Assembly: GCA_964347785.1 (NCBI GenBank)
Contig: CAYFZH010000001.1
Coordinates: forward strand, 35,589 to 99,588
Length of the DNA stretch: 64,000 bases
Source of the DNA: an uncultured Candidatus Saccharibacteria bacterium
GTDB taxonomy: Bacteria; Patescibacteriota; Minisyncoccia; Phycocordibacterales; Zambryskibacteraceae
Direction of reading: 5' to 3'
The position numbers and the translations under genes were made by a program. The notes under the pieces are model-generated. The model made no database searches, was not told the origin of the DNA, and saw nothing but the letters and a program-made list of their open reading frames with translations. The stretch's first letter is position 1. Every line of letters begins with the position of its first letter. Of the stretch, positions 3,009 through 50,741 are shown piece after piece.

Positions 3009-5606
3009 ATGAAAAAGGACCATAAATCGGAGGACAAAATAATCGTACGAGGTGCTCGTACTCACAACCTTAAGAACATTACGGTTGAGATGCCGCGCAA
3101 CAAGATGGTGGTCTTTACAGGACTCTCGGGCTCGGGCAAGTCATCTCTTGCCTTCGATACCATCTTCGCCGAAGGTCAGCGTCGTTATGTCGAGTCGCTC
3201 TCAAGCTATGCGAGGCAGTTCCTCCGTCAGATGCAGAAGCCAGATGTAGACGAGATCGTAGGTCTCTCTCCGGCTATCTCTATCGACCAGAAGTCGCGCT
3301 CCAACAATCCTCGCTCGACTGTCGCCACCATCACCGAGATCTACGACTATCTGCGTATCCTCTATGCGCGTATCGGTAGACCACATTGTCTAGTCTGTGG
3401 GACGGAGATCAAGAAACTAAGTAACGAAGAGATCAAGAACTTCGTCTTGGAGAAAATTTCTGAATACCAAGCCAGTAAGCCGAAAGCCAAGAAGCTTGAG
3501 TTGCCAATCTACGCAGAGATCTTCTCTCCGATAGTGCGTGGGAGGAAGGGTGAGTACTACCAGCTTCTCTACGACCTCTTGGGTAAGGGTTACTCAGAAG
3601 TGCTTGTCGACGGCGAGAGGAAGTCTCTCCGTGAGCGTATTGCACTTACCAAGACCAAGAAGCATGAGATCTCTGTCCTCGTCGACTCTATCTCAGTAGA
3701 AGATTTTAAGAGTGATGAGAAGTCAGCCCATGAGCGTTTGAGTGAGGCGATAGAGAAGGCTGTGAGTGAGTCTGATGGACTCCTTGTCCTGAAGTTCAGA
3801 GACATGAGCTTGAAAGAGCAGAGTAAGGAAGAGTTCCTGATGTCTGCCAAGTGGGCGTGCCCCAAGGATGGCTTCTCCTTCCCCGAGATTGAGCCGAGAC
3901 TCTTCTCCTTCAACTCGCCTTACGGTGCGTGTCCGACTTGTAACGGCTTGGGGACCAAGTACCTCTTCGGTACAGAACCGTGTGAAGCTTGTGAGGGTAA
4001 GCGTCTGAGAGCAGAGGCTCTCCACGTGCTTGTCGGAGGCAAGAATATCGTCGACCTCACTGCCATGTCTATCAAGGAAGCAGATGAGTTTTTCAAGAAG
4101 CTCAAGCTTACTGCGAGAGAGAAAAATATTTCTAAAGTGGTGACCAAGGAGATTGAGGCACGACTCTCCTTCATGCTCAACGTGGGTATAGACTATCTCT
4201 CTCTCAGCCGTCGCGCACACACACTCTCTGGTGGTGAGGCTCAGCGTATCCGTCTTGCCTCACAACTTGGTTCTGGACTCGTGGGTGCACTCTACGTGCT
4301 CGACGAGCCGACTATCGGTCTCCACTCTAGAGACAACGACAGACTGATCCAGACCTTGCTCAATCTCCGCGACCTCGGCAACACCATCCTCATCGTCGAA
4401 CACGACGAGGACACTATCTATGCATCAGATTATCTCATCGATATAGGACCGGGGGCTGGTACGCACGGTGGTGAGGTTGTGGTGGCAGATTATCTCGACG
4501 ATCTCCTGACAGCTCCGAAGAACAAGAGCGGGTCTCTCACCCTTTCTTATCTGCGTGGTGAGACCAAGATAGATTTACCAGAGAAGCGTCGTGAGTCAGA
4601 GAAGGGGATGATCCAGATTAGAGCTGGGAAAATTTTCAATATCAAACACTTAAACGTCGACATCCCACTCCACAGACTCATCGTCGTGACTGGTGTCTCG
4701 GGCTCTGGTAAGTCCTCCTTCGTCTACGAGATCCTTTATAAAAACTTACAGGCTCGTCTCGATAGGCGATACAGAAGTGCACAGACTTATAACTGTCAGA
4801 GCTTCAATGGCTCAGAGTATCTGGGTCGAGCTATCATGATCGACCAGTCGCCCATCGGTCGCACTCCTCGCTCGAACCCCGCGACATATACGGGTGCGTG
4901 GACCTTTATCCGAGAGCTCTTCGCCGAGTCGTCTGAGGCGCGAGCGCGTGGTTGGAAGCCGAACAGGTTCTCCTTCAACGTGAAGGGTGGTAGGTGTGAG
5001 ACTTGTCAGGGTAACGGGATGATAGAGGTGGAGATGCACTTCCTCCCGACAGTCTATGTGCCTTGTGATGTCTGTGGTGGTAAGAGGTTTATGAAAGAGA
5101 CTCTGGAGGTGAAGTACAAGGGCAAGAATATCCACCAAGTGCTTGAGATGACTATCGAGGAGGCACTAAGCTTCTTCGAAGATATCCCAGCTATCTACGA
5201 CAGACTCAAGTCGATGAACGACGTGGGTCTCGGATACCTTGCACTCGGTCAGTCTGCGACTACTCTCTCTGGTGGTGAGGCACAGAGAGTGAAGGTGGCA
5301 TCAGAACTCTATCGTCCTCATGTGGAGAAGACGATCTATATCCTCGACGAGCCGACTATCGGTCTCCACTACGAAGATGTGAGAAAGCTCATCGAGATCC
5401 TCCAGAAGCTCGTGGACAAGGGCAACACCGTGCTCGTCATCGAGCACAATATGGATGTCATCAAGAGTGCAGACTATATCCTCGACATCGGTCCTGAGGG
5501 AGGTGATGGGGGAGGTGATCTTGTTGCCAAGGGTACTCCAGAAGAAGTGGCGGGAGCTGATACGCATACAGCAAAATATCTTAGGAAAGCTTTGAAGAAG
5601 AAATAA
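3009..5606 (+). CDS. uvrA: Excinuclease ABC subunit A (UvrA)
   Basis: 865 aa with two ABC ATPase modules (GLSGSGKSS; GVSGSGKSS), LSGGE signature motifs and zinc-finger cysteines. Confidence 0.95.
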
Positions 5607-5611
5607 AAACC

Positions 5612-5637
5612 GACCCGAGCAGTCGTTGCTCGGGCCG
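5612..5637. terminator. Hairpin terminator shared by the convergent uvrA and minus-strand ORF
   Basis: Hairpin cccgagca..tgctcggg. Reading the minus strand it is followed by a T-tract (TTTTTATTT), so it is mainly the terminator of the minus-strand gene. Confidence 0.5.
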
Positions 5638-5647
5638 TCTCTCAGAA

Positions 5648-5914
5648 CTAGTAGGCGTCCGCGTAGTACGGATGCCGGAGTCCGGCCTCATAGTCGAGGT
5701 CGTCATACTCGTAGGGATCGTATCTCCTGAGCGCAGGCTCCTCTTCATCGAAGAAGGGGTAGATGTGCCCATCCTCGCGCTCAGATTCGAAAAAGTGGTC
5801 AAGTTCCTCCGCATCTTCCTGCTCCTCCTGGAGACTGAGACGGAGTTCCTCTTTCTTGCTGATCTGAAAGCGGTTCGCCTTGAGAATGCCCTTCTGTGCC
5901 ATGCCAGCCTCCAT
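5648..5914 (-). CDS. Highly acidic, aromatic-rich hypothetical protein (88 aa)
   Basis: GC-rich ORF (about 58% GC) with a D/E/Y-rich C-terminus. It is convergent with uvrA and divergent from uvrC, and followed by its own terminator hairpin. No SD was seen. Confidence 0.45.
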   Translation of the reverse strand: MEAGMAQKGILKANRFQISKKEELRLSLQEEQEDAEELDHFFESEREDGHIYPFFDEEEPALRRYDPYEYDDLDYEAGLRHPYYADAY

Positions 5915-5941
5915 GAATCGAAGCGGTTGAAAATGTCTCTA

Positions 5942-5957
5942 TATAGTATATACTATA
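5942..5957. promoter_or_regulatory. Perfect 16-bp palindrome TATAGTATATACTATA in the divergent promoter region, overlapping the -10 box (TATAAT 5954..5959) of uvrC
   Basis: Seen directly in the sequence. It is a candidate operator or divergent promoter element between ORF 5648..5914 and uvrC. Confidence 0.35.
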
Positions 5958-5961
5958 ATAG

Positions 5962-7179
5962 ATGAAAAGTCAAGAGCTCAAGAATTTTAACTTACCAGAT
6001 GCGCCGGGGGTGTATTACTTCTTAGATAAAAAGGGGAAGATTTTGTATGTAGGCAAAGCAACTTCCTTGAAGGATAGGGTCAAGAGTTACTTCGCTCGAG
6101 ATATCTTGATGACACGTGGACCGAAGATCCAGAAGATGCTCGAGGATGCGGTGAGAGTCGAGTACAAGCAGACTGACTCGGTACTTGAGGCACTTATACT
6201 TGAGGCGAACGAGATCAAGCGACTTCAACCTCCTGCCAACTCCAAGGACAAAGATGACAAGAGTTACAACTTCGTCGTGATTACCAAAGAGGATTTCCCA
6301 CGGGTACTAATAAAACGCGGTAGAGAGTTAGAAACAAACACTATGATATATCATAGTGTCTTCGGTCCGTTCCCGAACTCGGGGGAACTCAAAGAGGCTT
6401 TGCGAATAGTCAGGAAGATTTTTCCCTTCAGAGATGAGAAGTGCAAGATCACTGATAAACACAAACCTTGCTTCAACGCACAGCTAGGTCTCTGTCCGGG
6501 ACCTTGTGCGGGATGGATTACGAAGACGGACTACAAGAAGCAGATTAGGAATATCAAAATGTTTCTCGAAGGCAAGAAGCCCAAGCTTATCAAGTCTCTA
6601 GAGCAAGAGATGAAAGCGTTTGCCAAGAAGCACGAGTTTGAGAAAGCGGATGAGATCAAGAAAAAGATTTTTGCCCTCGATCACATTCAAGATATCGCTT
6701 TGATAAAGGCTGACATTACGACCTACGACGAACGACCAACGACATTTAGAATTGAAGCTTATGACATCGCCCATCTCTCGGGTAAAGATGTGGTAGGGGT
6801 GATGACTGTGGTTGAGGATGGAGAGACTGCGAAGAGTCAGTATAGGAAATTTAAAATCAAGCTAGACAAGAACGACGATACCAAGAACCTGAGGGAAGTC
6901 CTCGAGAGACGTCTCAACCACAGAGAGTGGCGACTACCTGAGCTCATCGTTGTAGATGGAGGAGTGGGTCAGATCAACGTCGCGAAGAGTGTGCTCAAGG
7001 AGAGAGGTCTCAAGATTAATGTAGTCTCGGTGGTCAAGGATGATCGGCATAAGGCTCGAGAAATCTTGGACCTCAAGGATAAGACTCTCGAGAAAGCGAT
7101 CATCCTCGCCAATGCAGAAGCGCATCGCTTCGCCATCGGTTATCACAGGAAGCTCCGTGGGAAAGGATTTCGTATATAA
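5962..7179 (+). CDS. uvrC: Excinuclease ABC subunit C (UvrC), short form lacking the C-terminal (HhH)2 domain
   Basis: N-terminal GIY-YIG motif (GVYYF..GKILYVGKA), a Cys-rich segment, the UvrB-interaction region and an RNase H-like endonuclease domain. At 405 aa it is shorter than the typical ~600 aa. Confidence 0.85.
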   Translation: MKSQELKNFNLPDAPGVYYFLDKKGKILYVGKATSLKDRVKSYFARDILMTRGPKIQKMLEDAVRVEYKQTDSVLEALILEANEIKRLQPPANSKDKDDKSYNFVVITKEDFPRVLIKRGRELETNTMIYHSVFGPFPNSGELKEALRIVRKIFPFRDEKCKITDKHKPCFNAQLGLCPGPCAGWITKTDYKKQIRNIKMFLEGKKPKLIKSLEQEMKAFAKKHEFEKADEIKKKIFALDHIQDIALIKADITTYDERPTTFRIEAYDIAHLSGKDVVGVMTVVEDGETAKSQYRKFKIKLDKNDDTKNLREVLERRLNHREWRLPELIVVDGGVGQINVAKSVLKERGLKINVVSVVKDDRHKAREILDLKDKTLEKAIILANAEAHRFAIGYHRKLRGKGFRI

Positions 7180-16645: not shown

Positions 16646-16741
16646 AGCATATTCTATACCTAATGTCAAGTAGCTAAAACAGCCTATAAACACGGCTTAA
16701 GGTGTGTTACTAAAAGGGTCAAATTTTGCTATATTATCTAT

Positions 16742-33452: not shown

Positions 33453-33495
33453 ATATAAAAAGAATCGGGCGAGCCACAGTGGCTCGCCCTTTTCA
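33453..33495. terminator. Bidirectional terminator gggcgagcc-acagt-ggctcgccc flanked by U-rich tracts
   Basis: 9-bp GC stem with TTTTC on the plus side and ATTCTTTTTATA on the minus side. It terminates minus-strand gene 33509..34159. Confidence 0.65.
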
Positions 33496-33508
33496 CACAG
33501 AAGAACTT

Positions 33509-34159
33509 CTACCAGCTCGGCCACCACGTGACGTTCGCACGCAGTTTCCGGTTGTGGGTGCTGTACGCGTCGACCTCGAGGCGAGCTTCGGCGTTGTCGC
33601 TGAACCGTCTCGCGGCTCCGACGACCACTCCGAGGTAAGGCCGGTGACCCTCTTCCGGCTTCAGTTCGAGCCAGTCGCCAGAAACGCAGAGGTATACGTC
33701 GAGACAGGTCCTCGACTTGTACATCTCGTACGCCTTGTGGTTGGTGACGAGTGCCACTCCGCCGAAGACGCCCGCGATCGGTCGGATGCCGAGCTTGTCG
33801 AGTACCTTCGGTCTCGGCGTTTCCCATGTCATCTGACCACGGACTGCGAGGTTGCTCGAGCGGACAACTCCGCCCTTGCTGTAGCTCACCGGACCGTAGT
33901 CTGAACCGCCCATCTCGTGGACGTCGACCTTCTCGTTGATGGAGAAGCGTTCGACGACGAGGCTTGCCCGAAGGGGCTTGTCGCGGTCGGCGAACATGAT
34001 GCCGATGGACCATGGCTTGATCGGCTCAGCTTCTCCATAGAAGTTGAGATCCGATGACGAGCCCAAGGTGTACACCGTGCCAGTGATGCCGATAGTGCGC
34101 TCCTCGGCCTTGGCCACAGATGCGACCAGCAGGACCAGAAGAATCATGAGATATTTCAC
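33509..34159 (-). CDS. Secreted beta-rich protein with signal peptide and a C-terminal aromatic residue (..VTWWPSW), resembling small outer-membrane beta-barrel proteins
   Basis: GTG start at 34159 with SD GGAGGT. Signal peptide KYLMILLVLLVASVAKA, alternating hydrophobic pattern, and a terminal W. About 58% GC. The ORF-track start at 34228 is an upstream extension. Confidence 0.5.
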   Translation of the reverse strand: MKYLMILLVLLVASVAKAEERTIGITGTVYTLGSSSDLNFYGEAEPIKPWSIGIMFADRDKPLRASLVVERFSINEKVDVHEMGGSDYGPVSYSKGGVVRSSNLAVRGQMTWETPRPKVLDKLGIRPIAGVFGGVALVTNHKAYEMYKSRTCLDVYLCVSGDWLELKPEEGHRPYLGVVVGAARRFSDNAEARLEVDAYSTHNRKLRANVTWWPSW

Positions 34160-34199
34160 TTCTCTACCTCCAAGGGGTGAGCGGGATGCTCTGTGTGCT

Positions 34200-34228
34200 A
34201 TACTAGCATAAATTATATAGATTGTCAA
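34200..34228 (-). promoter_or_regulatory. Sigma-70-like promoter TTGACA-17-TAGTAT for minus-strand gene 33509..34159
   Basis: Consensus hexamers with 17-nt spacing on the minus strand. Confidence 0.5.
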
Positions 34229-47964: not shown

Positions 47965-48006
47965 CATTTCCTTACTCAGTAGGGTTTTATATAAAGGAGG
48001 TGCGAT

Positions 48007-48381
48007 ATGAAGAAGGTTCCATATCCACATTCGTTTGAGGCTGGAACTGAATGGCAGGATGGCTATGTTCATCCAGAAGGGTTTAAAGTTAAGCTTAAAG
48101 CTCGTTTCCCAGACTGGTCTGGCTTACACGGACTTCTTGATAGTGAAGACAAGTGTGTGTGGGAGCTCCTTTGGATCTATCAAGGAAGACTCGGTACAAT
48201 CAAAGCTGAAGAAATTGTCGCTGCTGATGACAATGGCACCTTGAAGGAGATTGTCGCCAGAGTACGGGAAGCTCTTGAGCTTCACAACTGGCTCAACGAC
48301 CTTGAGAAGGAATTCTTCCCAGAAGAAATCGCTCGTCGTGAGGAGCGAAGGAAAAGAGATCTCGAGAGCTGGTTTTATTAG
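48007..48381 (+). CDS. Hypothetical protein (124 aa)
   Basis: SD AAGGAGGTG upstream. No known motif. Confidence 0.45.
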   Translation: MKKVPYPHSFEAGTEWQDGYVHPEGFKVKLKARFPDWSGLHGLLDSEDKCVWELLWIYQGRLGTIKAEEIVAADDNGTLKEIVARVREALELHNWLNDLEKEFFPEEIARREERRKRDLESWFY

Positions 48382-48407
48382 CAACAACTGAATCATCCTA
48401 TAAATCA

Positions 48408-48429
48408 GCGCCCGGCTTATGCCGGGCGC
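48408..48429. terminator. Hairpin gcgcccggc-ttat-gccgggcgc between convergent genes
   Basis: 9-bp GC stem with U-rich flanks on the minus side. Confidence 0.5.
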
Positions 48430-48447
48430 GTTGTAGTCTCACTGGGT

Positions 48448-48690
48448 TTAGGTTGAGCGTACCTCTGTTGGTATTCTCCTCGACACGAAGGCGTGGTCCA
48501 GTGGCACGATATATGCCTGCTGTTCCGTCCTCCTGTCGGAGGACTCTCTTTTGAATTGCCCATGAGAGTGCTCGGTGAATCCTCTCCGAGTCAGTTCGTT
48601 ACGGGCTACTTGCTCGCTACCGTATGGGCCAAAATTGCCATCTTCTCTTGTAGAGAAACTATAAGTGGTGATCTGCACACAGACTCTCAT
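48448..48690 (-). CDS. GC-rich small hypothetical protein (80 aa)
   Basis: Strong SD GGAGGTGG 5 nt upstream of the ATG at 48690. About 58% GC. The ORF-track start at 48738 is an upstream extension. Confidence 0.4.
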   Translation of the reverse strand: MRVCVQITTYSFSTREDGNFGPYGSEQVARNELTRRGFTEHSHGQFKRESSDRRTEQQAYIVPLDHAFVSRRIPTEVRST

Positions 48691-48771
48691 GGTGCCACCT
48701 CCGCTGGATAATGTAACACCAGATATTCTATAAAACAAACTAGGTTATATTAAAATTATTTGTAAGATAAT

Positions 48772-48800
48772 TTGACTTGTTACTATAAATAGTGTATAAA
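48772..48800 (+). promoter_or_regulatory. Sigma-70-like promoter TTGACT-17-TATAAA
   Basis: Consensus hexamers with 17-nt spacing in an AT-rich intergenic region. Followed by TGTGCTATG. Confidence 0.5.
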
Positions 48801-48806
48801 TGTGCT

Positions 48807-48985
48807 ATGCCTAGAGCATATTACAGTGCACATATGAATTCCTGCGGGCTCGGTCAGAAGATCGACGCCTCTTTTGCCGTATCTACCCAGAACGGATTCA
48901 TATTGTGTTCAGCTGTAATTGTCTAATCTCTCTAACTAAAAAGAATTTGGAAAACTGGAGCTGAACAGAAGCTTCAGTTTTTGTT
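48807..48985 (+). ncRNA. Roughly 180-nt promoter-to-terminator transcript without an ORF: candidate sRNA or cis-regulatory attenuator leader of the GNAT gene
   Basis: No ORF of 30 aa or more. Long-range helix atatgaattcc/ggattcatat, and an intrinsic terminator (ctgaa..ttcag + TTTTTGTTT at 48958..48985) about 40 nt upstream of the GNAT start, with no promoter between them. Confidence 0.4.
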
Positions 48986-49024
48986 TAGCAGTTGTTCTTT
49001 CACTTCAACACAGAGGATACGAAG

Positions 49025-49594
49025 ATGGTGACAGGAAAAGTGGTTTTTCTCCATGGTAAGAATGTGGTCCTACGTCCGGTTGAGAAGAGTGACGTGCCGA
49101 ACCTTGTCAGGTGGATCAACGATCCTGATGTGCGGCGGTTCCTCAATAACTCCTTTCCTCAGAATGAGCGTGACGAGGAAGAGTGGGTGAGTTCTCTGAG
49201 CAAGAAGACAAATAACATCGTCTTTGCTTTGGAGACTCTCTCTGGCTCTCCGATCGGAGTTATGGGACTTCACAACATCAAGTGGCGTGACGGTGTGGCG
49301 ACCACAGGAGCGTTTATCGGGGAGAAGGAGTATTGGGGCAAGGGTCTGGGGTCTGAGGCTAAACTGCTTCTCCTCGACTACGCCTTCAACACTCTGAATC
49401 TCAGGAAGATTTGCTCCGATGTTATCGCCTTCAACGAGAGGAGTTACAAGTACAGTCTCAAGTGTGGCTACAAGGAAGAGGCGAGACTCAAGTCCCACAT
49501 CTTCCGCGCTGGTCGCTACTGGGACATGATCCTCTTGGCAGTCTTCCGCGAAGACTTCGAGTCTGTTTGGGAGAAGTATCAGAAGGGAATCTAG
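49025..49594 (+). CDS. GNAT-family N-acetyltransferase (RimJ/RimL-like)
   Basis: GNAT motif A (IGEKEYWGKGLGSEAKLLLLDYAF). The ATG at 49025 has an AGAGGA SD-like sequence upstream. The ORF-track TTG at 48992 is an extension. Confidence 0.75.
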   Translation: MVTGKVVFLHGKNVVLRPVEKSDVPNLVRWINDPDVRRFLNNSFPQNERDEEEWVSSLSKKTNNIVFALETLSGSPIGVMGLHNIKWRDGVATTGAFIGEKEYWGKGLGSEAKLLLLDYAFNTLNLRKICSDVIAFNERSYKYSLKCGYKEEARLKSHIFRAGRYWDMILLAVFREDFESVWEKYQKGI

Positions 49595-49600
49595 TGTGCA

Positions 49601-49637
49601 AAAGCCTGTGGTCTACACGACCACAGGCTTTTTTATA
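49601..49637 (+). terminator. Strong rho-independent terminator aaagcctgtggtc-tacac-gaccacaggcttt followed by TTTAT
   Basis: 13-bp stem followed by a T-tract after the GNAT gene. Confidence 0.8.
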
Positions 49638-49675
49638 TTATATAAAAGAAAAGGACCACCCTGGAAAGAAAAACT

Positions 49676-49872
49676 TCCATAGGTGGCCCCGCGAACGAGC
49701 GAACGAGCGAACGAGATTGAGACGAAGGACGAGCCCCCGGTCCGCGCGAGAGGTCCGCGGGGACCGAACAGTGTCGGCGCCACGGTGAGCTACTCGCCGC
49801 GAACCGGGGTAAGTCAGGTGGAGAGGCTATGCCGTCGAATGAATCACCCGGCGGACACGCCCCGTCGCCACC
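49676..49872. other. GC-rich (about 65%) non-coding island of about 200 nt with an 8-nt x3 tandem repeat (gcgaacga, 49691..49714) and several GC hairpins. Unknown element.
   Basis: Composition shift against about 35% GC flanks. Contains the direct repeat ggtccgcg x2 and long-range complementarity ggccccgcg/cgcggggacc. Only junk-like ORFs overlap it. Confidence 0.3.
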
Positions 49873-50000
49873 CTTATCTATATCCTATCATACATCACAT
49901 TTTTTGTCAAGCATTTGTTATATATCATCTAGAAATGGCTCAGATTAGCCCTCCTTGAGACTTGGGGGATAGAGGAAGAAAAGCTATAATACTAGGACTT

Positions 50001-50741
50001 ATGGAGGGAACTTATACGGTAAAAACACATGTCTTCGAAGGTCCTCTAGATCTACTACTAGAGCTTGTGACCAAGAGGAAACTCTTTATCAACGACGTCT
50101 CTCTGGCACAGGTGGCAGATGACTTCATCAAGTACTTAGATGAGCACGAAGAATTCCCTATAGCTGAGAGTGCGGAGTTTATCCTCGTGGCCTCGACCCT
50201 CATGCTCATCAAGAGTCGCTCGCTCCTACCGATGCTAGAGCTGACTCAGGAGGAAGAGGAGAGTATCCACGACCTTGAGAGTCGTCTTGAGATCTATGCG
50301 AGAGTGAAGGAGCTTGCAGGGGAGCTCAGACTTATCTTCGGCAAGAAGATGATCTATGAGAAGGAGTCGAGGAGAAACGAGACTATCATCTTCTCCCCAG
50401 ATGCGAAGACCGACAAGGAGAACCTCCTCCTCTCGCTAGAGAGAGTGATCGACTCTCTACCCAAGAAAGAGTTCCTGCCCAAAGTGATGGTGAGGAAGGT
50501 GGTCAGTCTCGAGGAGATGATCGAGCGACTCGCCGAGAGGGTGAGTAAGGCGAACAAACTCTCCTTCACCAGCTTCCACGGAGCGAAGGGTGCTCTTACT
50601 CCAGAGAAGAAAGTTTCTATCATTGTTGGTTTCCTTGCTATGCTGGAGCTTGTGAAGAGGGGAGCTATCCGCGTGAGTCAGGAGGAAGGAGGGGAGATCC
50701 ACATGGAGACAGAGATGGTCAATACACCGAACTATGCTTGA
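50001..50741 (+). CDS. scpA: Segregation and condensation protein A
   Basis: ScpA N-terminus (FEGPLDLLLELV.KRKL.I.DVSLAQVADDF). The ATG at 50001 is preferred, and TATAAT lies 10 nt upstream. The ORF-track TTG at 49962 is an extension. Confidence 0.8.
   Translation: MEGTYTVKTHVFEGPLDLLLELVTKRKLFINDVSLAQVADDFIKYLDEHEEFPIAESAEFILVASTLMLIKSRSLLPMLELTQEEEESIHDLESRLEIYARVKELAGELRLIFGKKMIYEKESRRNETIIFSPDAKTDKENLLLSLERVIDSLPKKEFLPKVMVRKVVSLEEMIERLAERVSKANKLSFTSFHGAKGALTPEKKVSIIVGFLAMLELVKRGAIRVSQEEGGEIHMETEMVNTPNYA

What the first reader, a model, noticed from the sequence alone, without database searches (positions are those of the whole stretch)
49676..49872. Roughly 200-nt GC-rich non-coding island with an 8-nt x3 tandem repeat
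The island is about 65% GC with AT-rich flanks. It contains (gcgaacga)x3, the direct repeat ggtccgcg x2, and long-range complementarity (ggccccgcg / cgcggggacc; ggtggc / gccacc near the ends). It sits between the GNAT terminator and scpA.

I tested it against tmRNA, RNase P and SRP consensus features. There are only weak partial resemblances, such as a GAACCGGGGUAAG P4-like string, and no coherent match.

It may be a novel stable RNA, a degenerate remnant of one, or a tiny mobile or repeat element.
Basis: seen in the sequence. Interest (0 to 1): 0.5.

Follow-up and report, generated by a model that had tools for sequence, protein, structure and literature searches.

The report
Orphan small-RNA gene candidate, minus strand
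The GC-rich island is real and is best read as a lineage-specific, roughly 230-nt structured small-RNA gene on the opposite strand, with its own promoter and terminator, in an uncultivated Patescibacteria (CPR) genome; it matches no known RNA family, no relative of it was found, and its function is unproven.

Summary
Positions 49676-49872 are 67.5% GC against 35-38% flanks, the most GC-rich stretch of the window. The repeats and complementarities described are all present.

On the minus strand:
- A near-consensus sigma-70 promoter (TTGACA-17-TGnTAGGAT, 49910-49882) puts the start at about 49875, the island edge.
- A strong hairpin plus UUUUCUUUU (49690-49644) ends the unit.
- In between lie two stable hairpins and a 38-nt linker, mostly unpaired and C/U-rich, that carries the 8-nt repeat.
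- There is no usable ORF.
- The whole 238-nt transcript folds better than every shuffle (z = -3.7) and better than the plus strand.

Rfam at E<=10 and ARAGORN give no tmRNA, RNase P, SRP or 6S match.

No second copy or homologue turned up in the window, 50 related or matched loci, phage and plasmid records, viral contigs or JGI metagenomes. A six-frame translation found nothing among 5.8 billion proteins.

Relatives carry other cargo, or nothing, in this slot between the GNAT gene and scpA.

Verdict: a plausible orphan sRNA gene. Its transcription signals are well supported; expression and function are untested. Interest is modest.

The parts
49882..49910 (-). Sigma-70-type promoter: -35 TTGACA (49910-49905), 17-nt spacer ending in TGA (extended -10), -10 TAGGAT (49887-49882)
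   Evidence: scores it 10/12 with TG. One search finds only 10 sites this good in 128 kb of both strands. The three other minus-strand sites with a perfect TTGACA -35, 17-nt spacing and at least 10/12 all sit in front of real minus-strand genes.
49873..49875 (-). Inferred transcription start (A49875, A49874 or G49873), 7-9 nt after the -10 and exactly at the GC-rich edge
   Evidence: Inferred from promoter geometry and the sequence. Not measured.
49816..49873 (-). H1: 58-nt irregular 5' hairpin closed by GGGUGG:CCACCU. It contains GGGGCGUG...UUCGACGG, a short chance-level resemblance to a tmRNA 5' end.
   Evidence: -27.4 kcal/mol with 5 G-U pairs on the minus strand, against 1 on the plus strand.
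49728..49815 (-). H2: 88-nt rod-like hairpin with a 12-bp basal stem, CCCCGGUUCGCG:CGCGGACCGGGG.
   Evidence: -51.0 kcal/mol, z = -4.1, 1 of 300 shuffles as stable; inverted repeat I3.
49691..49727 (-). Mostly unpaired pyrimidine-rich linker between H2 and the terminator, with UCGUUCGC x3 (49715-49691) and one degenerate unit upstream. Proposed interaction region.
   Evidence: The MFE leaves the first 18 nt unpaired and places only a weak 5-bp hairpin over the repeat; the centroid leaves the whole linker unpaired. TRF. The same 8-nt unit occurs as a plain microsatellite in unrelated viral contigs.
49653..49690 (-). Terminator hairpin GGGGCCACCU-AUGGAAG...CUUUCC-AGGGUGGUCC: 16 bp, of which 4 are G-U
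   Evidence: -23.0 kcal/mol on the minus strand against -15.5 on the plus strand, z = -4.8; 6th strongest of only 17 hairpin-plus-T-tract sites in 128 kb.
49644..49652 (-). U-tract UUUUCUUUU directly after the hairpin; inferred 3' end of the RNA
   Evidence: Sequence.
49600..49632 (+). Context: intrinsic terminator of the convergent GNAT gene. It is not part of the RNA, but would stop any read-through from the minus strand.
   Evidence: (inverted repeat I1).
49985..49990 (+). Context: scpA's own -10 (GCTATAAT), 10 nt before its ATG and conserved in relatives. It shows the island is not the scpA leader.

Best explanation
The island is the body of an independently transcribed, non-coding small RNA of about 230 nt on the minus strand. 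It is divergent from scpA and convergent with the GNAT gene.

Shown from the sequence:
- A near-consensus extended -10 promoter places the 5' end at the base of the first hairpin.
- The RNA folds into two GC-rich hairpins, H1 (58 nt) and H2 (88 nt).
- These are followed by a 38-nt C/U-rich linker, mostly unpaired, that carries the 8-nt repeat.
- The unit ends in a canonical intrinsic terminator.

Inferred mechanism:
- The hairpins stabilise the RNA. The exposed pyrimidine-rich linker (…GUCCUUCGUCUC…UCGUUCGC x3) is the working surface.
- Most likely it base-pairs with purine-rich mRNA segments, such as Shine-Dalgarno-like GAAGGA/GGAGGA or GCGAACGA-like strings. This is how the C-rich regulatory sRNAs of Gram-positive bacteria act.
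- Alternatively it binds a protein.

The gene is lineage-specific cargo in a slot between GNAT and scpA that differs from genome to genome.
For: Promoter:
- TTGACA-17-TAGGAT with TG lies at 49910-49882 on the minus strand.
- It is one of only four minus-strand sites with a perfect TTGACA -35, 17-nt spacing and at least 10/12. The other three precede real minus-strand genes.
- A fifth minus-strand promoter match (TTGACT-17-TATACT, 5973-5945), paired with a terminator, likewise brackets a real 88-aa gene.

Terminator:
- The hairpin is -21 to -23 kcal/mol and is followed by UUUUCUUUU.
- It ranks 6th of only 17 such sites in 128 kb.
- Four G-U pairs make it markedly better on the minus strand.

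Fold:
- The 238-nt transcript has an MFE of -105.6 kcal/mol, z = -3.7, and no shuffle reaches it (0 of 200; 0 of 300). The plus strand gives -92.1.
- The minus strand has 11 G-U pairs against 3 on the plus strand.

Coding potential:
- No ORF with a usable start exists in any frame.
- No Pfam match reaches a gathering score.
- No protein among 5.8 billion resembles any of the six frames.

Other:
- The stretch has the highest GC in the window. High-GC intergenic regions are enriched for structured RNAs; this is the GC-IGR rationale, taken from the abstract of PMC8723152 (abstracts listed; see also PMC6429828 and PMC8632094). The papers themselves were not read.
- scpA has its own conserved -10 next to its ATG, so the island is not its leader.
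Against: - No expression data were available.
- No homologue was found anywhere, so there is no covariation support and no evidence of purifying selection.
- Without the terminator, the island's fold is not clearly better than shuffles: z = -1.2 for the body and -1.9 for H1. Only H2 and the terminator stand out.
- The proposed working region is a short microsatellite. The same unit occurs in unrelated viral DNA, which argues for neutral slippage rather than a selected seed.
- No convincing target site was found in the 64-kb window. The best is a G-U-rich 17-mer inside grpE.
Confidence: 0.6

Rival explanations
1. The island is non-functional inserted DNA. A GC-rich fragment of foreign or scrambled origin landed in a recombination-prone slot. 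The promoter and terminator are leftovers of a displaced minus-strand cargo gene, or are coincidental. Any transcript is noise.
For: - It is an orphan, absent from every relative examined. In those relatives the same slot is empty, holds a lytic transglycosylase gene, or holds unrelated minus-strand small ORFs.
- It contains a slippage-type microsatellite.
- The window holds another anomalously GC-rich gene, so foreign DNA does enter this genome.
Against: - The promoter start and the terminator fit the ends of the structured segment to within a few nucleotides.
- Both signals are rare in this genome: 10 and 17 sites in 128 kb.
- The G-U asymmetry favours the same strand as the signals.
- No trace of a coding origin was found.
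Confidence: 0.2
2. The RNA is a conditional terminator. The 5' GGGUGGC can pair either with CCACCU inside H1 or with the GCCACCU that forms the 5' strand of the terminator. A ligand or protein that shifts this choice would allow read-through and produce an antisense RNA against the 3' end of the GNAT mRNA. This would resemble riboswitch-controlled antisense RNAs, a class I recall from memory.
For: - GGGUGG and CCACCU each occur twice in the RNA.
- The island folded without the terminator's 3' strand takes the long-range pairing as its MFE (the 200-nt prefix).
- The alternative full-length conformer, at -96.6 kcal/mol, is only 9 kcal/mol above the MFE.
- The GNAT gene is convergent and 50 nt away.
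Against: - H1 forms first during transcription and the terminator conformer is clearly the more stable one.
- A 7-nt repeat pair is expected by chance in 400 nt.
- A second hairpin (49632-49600) would stop read-through before the GNAT coding region is covered extensively.
- There is no conservation with which to test the idea.
Confidence: 0.07
3. The island is a highly divergent or truncated housekeeping RNA (tmRNA, RNase P RNA, SRP RNA or 6S RNA) of a CPR bacterium that standard models miss.
For: - The size, GC richness and own promoter fit a stable RNA.
- The minus strand has GGGGCGUG…UUCGACGG, reminiscent of a tmRNA 5' end. This comparison is from memory.
- The ends can pair, as they do in 6S RNA.
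Against: - No Rfam family of these types matches, even at E<=10 in a 431-nt search. Nothing reaches a gathering score.
- ARAGORN finds no tmRNA.
- There is no T-arm motif apart from a tRNA, no ACCA acceptor end and no tag reading frame.
- The GGAAGCAGCC-type SRP motif and the GAGGAAAGUCC P4 strand are absent on inspection of the sequence.
- The closing stem is only 7 bp and there is no central bubble.
- Housekeeping RNAs would be conserved in relatives, but the locus is absent from them.
Confidence: 0.03
4. The island is a plus-strand RNA, either a long 5' leader or riboswitch of the scpAB operon, or read-through from GNAT.
For: - It lies directly upstream of scpA on the coding strand.
- There is a weak promoter-like site at 49612-49641, scoring 9/12.
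Against: - scpA has its own GCTATAAT 10 nt before the ATG. This element is conserved in relatives that lack the island.
- The GNAT terminator is strong.
- The plus strand folds 13 kcal/mol worse and loses the G-U pairs.
- Relatives have 18-170 nt here, with no comparable element.
Confidence: 0.03
5. The island is a small mobile element (MITE) or dispersed repeat, a retron ncRNA, or a type I toxin mRNA encoding the 15-aa peptide MEVFLSRVVLFFYII.
For: - A 7-nt direct repeat, CCACCCT, lies at 49656 and 49868.
- The inverted ends plus a long hairpin loosely recall a retron msr/msd.
- A small hydrophobic ORF starts at 49679.
Against: - It is single-copy everywhere that was searched.
- There are no terminal inverted repeats.
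- No reverse transcriptase or integrase lies within 5 kb.
- The 15-codon ORF lies inside the terminator hairpin. Its stop codon is beyond the U-tract, and 15 aa is too short for a membrane toxin.
Confidence: 0.04

Closest known systems
Terminator-ended trans-acting sRNAs with unpaired pyrimidine-rich regions (RoxS/RsaE and FsrA type, Firmicutes)
   Same: - It has its own sigma-70 promoter.
- It has 5' hairpins and an exposed C/U-rich stretch just before an intrinsic terminator.
- It has no ORF.
- The proposed action, pairing with purine-rich ribosome-binding regions, is the same.
   Different: - It does not match these families. Inside the island no Rfam family of any kind matches at E<=10. 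In a separate search of 48350-49050, outside the island, FsrA scored only 17.5 bits against a gathering score of 80.
- It is about twice as long and much more GC-rich.
- The exposed stretch is a tandem 8-nt repeat rather than CCC motifs.
- It occurs in a CPR bacterium and no homologue was found.
6S RNA
   Same: - It is about 200 nt with its own strong promoter.
- The 5' and 3' ends can pair.
- It is GC-rich and stable.
   Different: - The closing stem is only 7 bp.
- It has two separate hairpins rather than one rod with a central bubble.
- There is no match to RF00013.
- It is not conserved in relatives.
tmRNA (5' region)
   Same: A short string, GGGGCGUG…GAUUCAUUCGACGG, resembles the tmRNA 5' acceptor and D-loop-like segment. 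This comparison is from memory.
   Different: - There is no T-arm, no acceptor 3' strand with ACCA, no pseudoknots and no tag ORF.
- ARAGORN and all Rfam tmRNA models are negative.
Candidate structured ncRNAs found as long GC-rich intergenic regions (GC-IGR approach; PMC6429828, PMC8632094, PMC11109978)
   Same: It was found by the same signature: an intergenic region whose GC content far exceeds the genome's.
   Different: Those candidates are accepted on covariation across many representatives. This one has a single representative and no covariation evidence.

Membership tests
tmRNA | tRNA-like domain: T-arm (GGUUCGAnUCC-type) and an acceptor stem ending in ACCA | tested here: not met
   The only GGTTCRANTCC in the window is in tRNA-Val. 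ARAGORN finds no tmRNA. The only CCACC strings in the RNA are strands of helices.
tmRNA | Match to tmRNA covariance models (standard and permuted forms) | tested here: not met
   No tmRNA-type hit at E<=10 in 49560-49990 on either strand. Nothing at gathering score.
RNase P RNA | Conserved P4 strands and a match to RNase P covariance models | tested here: not met
   No RNase P family at E<=10. GAACCGGGGUAAG pairs with CCCCGGU as the base of hairpin H2.
SRP RNA (4.5S / large bacterial) | Domain IV helix-8 motif and a match to SRP covariance models | tested here: not met
   No SRP family at E<=10. Only a 7-nt GUCAGGU coincidence was seen, on inspection of the sequence.
6S RNA | A single long rod with a large central bubble; a match to RF00013 | tested here: not met
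   The predicted fold has two independent hairpins, and the ends pair over only 7 bp. No 6S hit.
MITE / dispersed repeat | Multiple copies in the genome or in related genomes; terminal inverted repeats with a target-site duplication | tested here: not met
   - It is single-copy in the window by blastn and by covariance model.
- It is absent from 50 related or matched loci.
- The inverted ends are only 6 nt.
- The rest of the genome could not be searched.
Retron ncRNA (msr-msd) | A reverse transcriptase gene immediately downstream on the same strand | tested here: not met
   The genes within 5 kb are aminoacyl-tRNA synthetases, an ABC protein, GNAT, ScpA/B, a peptidase, AsnB and a glycosyltransferase. 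What lies downstream on the minus strand is the antisense of GNAT.
Independent bacterial sRNA gene (generic kind) | Own promoter and own intrinsic terminator in the same orientation, bracketing a segment with no ORF | tested here: met
   Promoter. Terminator. No ORF or coding signal.
Independent bacterial sRNA gene (generic kind) | A discrete transcript detected | not testable with these tools
   No transcriptome data were available.
Independent bacterial sRNA gene (generic kind) | Conservation or covariation of the structure in relatives | tested here: not met
   No homologue was found. The only other occurrences are identical copies from the same population.

The most novel reading that the evidence does not exclude
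The island may be the founding member of an undescribed class of structured RNA genes carried as exchangeable cargo in a hypervariable slot next to the chromosome-condensation genes scpAB of Parcubacteria. In this reading the competing GGGUGG/CCACCU pairings act as a switch that controls read-through into antisense transcription of the neighbouring acetyltransferase gene.
Probability: 0.07. Interest if true: 0.55.

Novelty: new member of a known kind. Interest (0 to 1): 0.3.

Why it matters
To my knowledge almost nothing is known about regulatory RNAs in CPR/Patescibacteria, which are uncultivated and have tiny genomes; the one literature search tried here surfaced nothing relevant. A cleanly delimited, strongly promoted, highly structured orphan RNA gene would be a concrete candidate to look for in metatranscriptomes. 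It would also show that new RNA genes can arise or be acquired in a single lineage.

As it stands it is a single-genome prediction with no conservation and no target. It adds one candidate and does not open a new question.

Tried and rejected
Known RNA families
- Rfam at gathering score on the whole window, and at E<=10 on the island, gave nothing inside the island. The only hits were terminator look-alikes at 49592-49689.
- ARAGORN found no tmRNA in the window or in 28 relatives' loci.

Copies and homologues
- blastn of the island against the window found only chance 10-12-mers.
- blastn and nhmmer against 24 scpA loci, and later against 50 loci, found nothing.
- A covariance model of H1+H2, run over 428 kb, found only itself.
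- blastn against phage records gave no match. Against plasmid records it gave only chance hits, E 0.06-0.7, in high-GC genes.
- Three exact-pattern scans of IMG/VR were run. One pattern gave nothing. Another gave three hits that match only the 19-nt search pattern itself, with no similarity beyond it. The 24-nt repeat pattern hit unrelated (CTCGTTCG)n microsatellites lying after stop codons.
- One JGI metagenome scan with an 18-mer from H1 gave 8 hits that match only the pattern itself, about the number expected by chance.
- GNAT homologues at 65-73% identity and their contigs were examined. None has a GC-rich element after GNAT.

Coding origin
- Pfam and PHROGs on the island ORFs and on neighbouring genes gave nothing relevant.
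- A chimeric query of all six reading frames against 5.8 billion proteins gave no hit.

Targets
- A run-length complementarity scan found no ribosome-binding-site target in the window.

Other ideas rejected
- scpA leader: rejected because of the conserved -10 next to the ATG.
- Target-site duplication CCACCCT: a 7-mer repeat is expected by chance.
- Small hydrophobic peptide: its stop codon lies beyond the terminator.

Full report
**1. The observation**

The island is real.
- Positions 49676-49872 are 67.5% GC, between flanks of 38% and 35%.
- The stretch 49724-49873 is the most GC-rich 150 nt in the 64-kb window: 0.70 against a mean of 0.49, sd 0.05.
- TRF reports GCGAACGA x3.1 at 49691-49715 with 100% matches.
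- GGTCCGCG x2, GGTGGC/GCCACC near the two ends, and the imperfect GGCCCCGCG/CGCGGGGACC complementarity are all present.
- The island lies between a RimJ/RimL-type GNAT acetyltransferase gene (49025-49594), with its terminator at 49600-49632, and scpA (50001-50741).
- The same 406-nt spacer, base for base and with the same repeat number, is found in three further contigs: one ENA assembly and two Logan assemblies of separate sequencing runs. It is not an assembly artefact. It also shows no strain variation.

**2. Organism and neighbourhood**

ScpA relatives identify a member of the Patescibacteria (CPR), close to Candidatus Zambryskibacteria. The best ScpA identity is 76%.

The stretch between the AsnRS/AspRS-type synthetase gene and scpA varies strikingly among relatives:
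- The synthetase gene runs straight into scpA in L001 and L003.
- A lytic transglycosylase (SLT) gene precedes scpA in L002 and L005. Those two contigs end before any GNAT gene would be reached.
- In L029 and L032 the SLT gene lies between GNAT and scpA.
- GNAT abuts scpA in L050.
- Unrelated minus-strand ORFs of 80-214 aa follow GNAT in L051, L052/L054 and L032.

None of these loci has a GC-rich element. The island therefore occupies a hypervariable slot and is specific to this lineage.

**3. Which strand**

The signals are on the minus strand.

*Promoter*
- TTGACA-17 nt-TAGGAT, with a TGn extension, lies at 49910-49882.
- In a census of both strands of the window, only ten sites reach 10/12 matches.
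- The three other minus-strand sites with a perfect TTGACA -35, 17-nt spacing and at least 10/12 lie in front of real minus-strand genes, at 16669, 34228 and 60396.
- The expected start, 7-9 nt after the -10, is A49875 to G49873. That is exactly the first base of the GC-rich segment.

*Terminator*
- At the other end, GGGGCCACCU-AUGGAAG…CUUUCC-AGGGUGGUCC forms a 16-bp hairpin followed by UUUUCUUUU (49690-49644).
- It is -23.0 kcal/mol on the minus strand but -15.5 on the plus strand, because four of its pairs are G-U.
- It ranks sixth among only 17 hairpin-plus-T-tract sites in 128 kb. Most of those sit at gene ends.

*Control.* Elsewhere in the window, a minus-strand promoter match (TTGACT-17-TATACT, 5973-5945) paired with a terminator (5654-5601) brackets a real 88-aa gene. 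Such pairs therefore mark transcription units in this genome.

*Chance.* I estimate the chance of finding a promoter and a terminator, in the same orientation, at the two edges of one given 230-nt segment at about 1e-4. This is the product of the two site densities.

**4. Anatomy of the predicted RNA (49875 to 49644, minus strand)**

The parts, in order, are:
- H1: a 58-nt irregular hairpin (49873-49816).
- H2: an 88-nt rod (49815-49728; -51.0 kcal/mol, z = -4.1).
- A 38-nt pyrimidine-rich linker (49727-49690). The MFE leaves its first 18 nt unpaired and puts only a weak 5-bp hairpin over the repeat; the centroid leaves all of it unpaired. It contains UCGUUCGC x3.
- The terminator.

For the whole 238-nt transcript:
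- The MFE is -105.6 kcal/mol, z = -3.7, and no shuffle is as stable (0 of 200; 0 of 300).
- The plus strand reaches only -92.1 kcal/mol.
- The minus strand has 11 G-U pairs against 3 on the plus strand.

Two caveats apply. Without the terminator, the body alone is not significantly more stable than shuffles of the same very GC-rich composition (z = -1.2). H1 alone gives z = -1.9.

**5. Not coding**

- No frame has a start codon in a usable position.
- The one frame that is open throughout lacks any ATG, GTG or TTG until a 15-codon tail. That tail lies inside the terminator, and its stop codon falls beyond the U-tract.
- Pfam gives nothing above its cut-off.
- A chimeric query of all six frames finds no similar protein among 5.8 billion. 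This also argues against a decayed foreign gene.

**6. Not a known RNA**

- Rfam 15 gives nothing at gathering score.
- It gives nothing inside the island even at E<=10 when only 431 nt are searched.
- ARAGORN finds no tmRNA.
- The minus strand has GGGGCGUG…UUCGACGG, which recalls a tmRNA 5' end. But there is no T-arm, no ACCA end and no tag frame.
- The ends pair over only 7 bp and there is no central bubble, so the RNA is not 6S-like.

**7. Not a repeat or mobile element, and no homologue found**

- The window: no second copy by blastn or by covariance model.
- 50 related or matched loci, 488 kb: nothing.
- Phage and plasmid records: nothing.
- IMG/VR: the 24-nt repeat pattern hit only plain (CTCGTTCG)n microsatellites downstream of stop codons in unrelated contigs. 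A 19-mer gave hits that match only the search pattern itself, with no similarity beyond it.
- JGI metagenomes: the 18-mer scan gave eight hits that match only the pattern itself.

These pattern scans detect only near-identical copies. Diverged homologues outside the syntenic loci cannot be excluded.

**8. Not the scpA leader**

GCTATAAT lies 9-10 nt before the scpA start codon in the window and in relatives that lack the island. scpA is therefore transcribed from its own promoter with essentially no leader.

**9. Mechanism**

*Shown:* transcription signals, strand bias, stable hairpins and absence of coding potential.

*Inferred:* the RNA is made and is stable, and its exposed C/U-rich linker is the functional surface.
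- The linker probably pairs with purine-rich mRNA segments. UCCUUC is complementary to GAAGGA/GGAGGA-type ribosome-binding sites, and UCGUUCGC to GCGAACGA.
- No convincing target lies in the window. The best is a G-U-rich 17-nt run inside grpE.
- That the linker is a microsatellite weakens this inference.

*Curiosity:* GGGUGG and CCACCU each occur twice.
- The 5' end can therefore pair either within H1 or with the 5' strand of the terminator.
- The conformer that disrupts the terminator is 9 kcal/mol less stable (-96.6 against -105.6 kcal/mol).
- It is nevertheless the MFE of the 200-nt nascent RNA.
- This permits, but does not demonstrate, conditional read-through that would be antisense to the GNAT gene.

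**10. Verdict**

The interpretation 'novel stable RNA' is the best supported of the three options, but the RNA is on the other strand, and it is an orphan, lineage-specific sRNA gene candidate rather than a relative of tmRNA, RNase P or SRP.

- Confidence that it is a genuine independent minus-strand RNA gene: about 0.6.
- Confidence in the base-pairing mechanism: much lower.
- Main rival: neutral inserted DNA in a recombination hot spot, about 0.2.
- Novelty: a new member of a known kind.
- Interest: modest, 0.3. There is one genome, no conservation, no target and no expression data.

Noticed in passing
window 33456-34228 (minus strand): A GC-rich gene (0.62-0.66 GC in a 49% GC genome) for a roughly 215-aa protein with a signal peptide (MKYLMILLVLLVASVAKA…). 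It has its own TTGACA-17-TAGTAT promoter (34228-34200) and terminator (33509-33456). It looks horizontally acquired.
   Followed up: partly
window 49985-50003; L001 about 1170-1195; L029 about 2730-2750; L032 about 3250-3275: scpA is preceded by a conserved GGCTATAAT only 9-10 nt before its ATG, with no Shine-Dalgarno sequence. This suggests a leaderless or near-leaderless scpA mRNA across these Parcubacteria.
   Followed up: partly
L005 170-250; L032 1830-1900; L034 2380-2445: A conserved extended hairpin (ACGAATGTGCGAGCC…GGCTCGTTTATTCGTAAGAAGTTCGCACATTC) lies directly upstream of the lytic transglycosylase (SLT) gene in three relatives. It may be a cis-regulatory leader. The window's genome lacks this gene at this position.
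   Followed up: no
window 47965-50000 compared with L001, L003, L029, L032, L050-L054: The segment between the AsnRS/AspRS-type gene and scpA is a hot spot of gene-content variation among relatives. It is empty, or holds GNAT, SLT, or assorted minus-strand small membrane ORFs.
   Followed up: yes
window 5601-5973 (minus strand): An 88-aa, very acidic protein gene (5648-5914) has its own promoter (5973-5945) and terminator (5654-5601), between uvrA-like and uvrC-like genes.
   Followed up: partly
L038 6591-6649; L041 967-1005; L039 1596-1637; L040 9965-10006: IMG/VR viral contigs carry (CTCGTTCG)n microsatellites of 4-7 units immediately after stop codons. The unit is the same as in the island's repeat, but there is no other similarity.
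   Followed up: partly
window 48396-48992: - This is a 600-nt stretch with few genes.
- It holds an 80-aa minus-strand ORF (48448-48690) with a weak DUF6316 match (E = 1e-4, below the cut-off).
- A bidirectional terminator lies at 48409-48430.
- A very AT-rich spacer lies at 48700-48800.
- The 124-aa ORF at 48007-48381 has no family match.
   Followed up: partly
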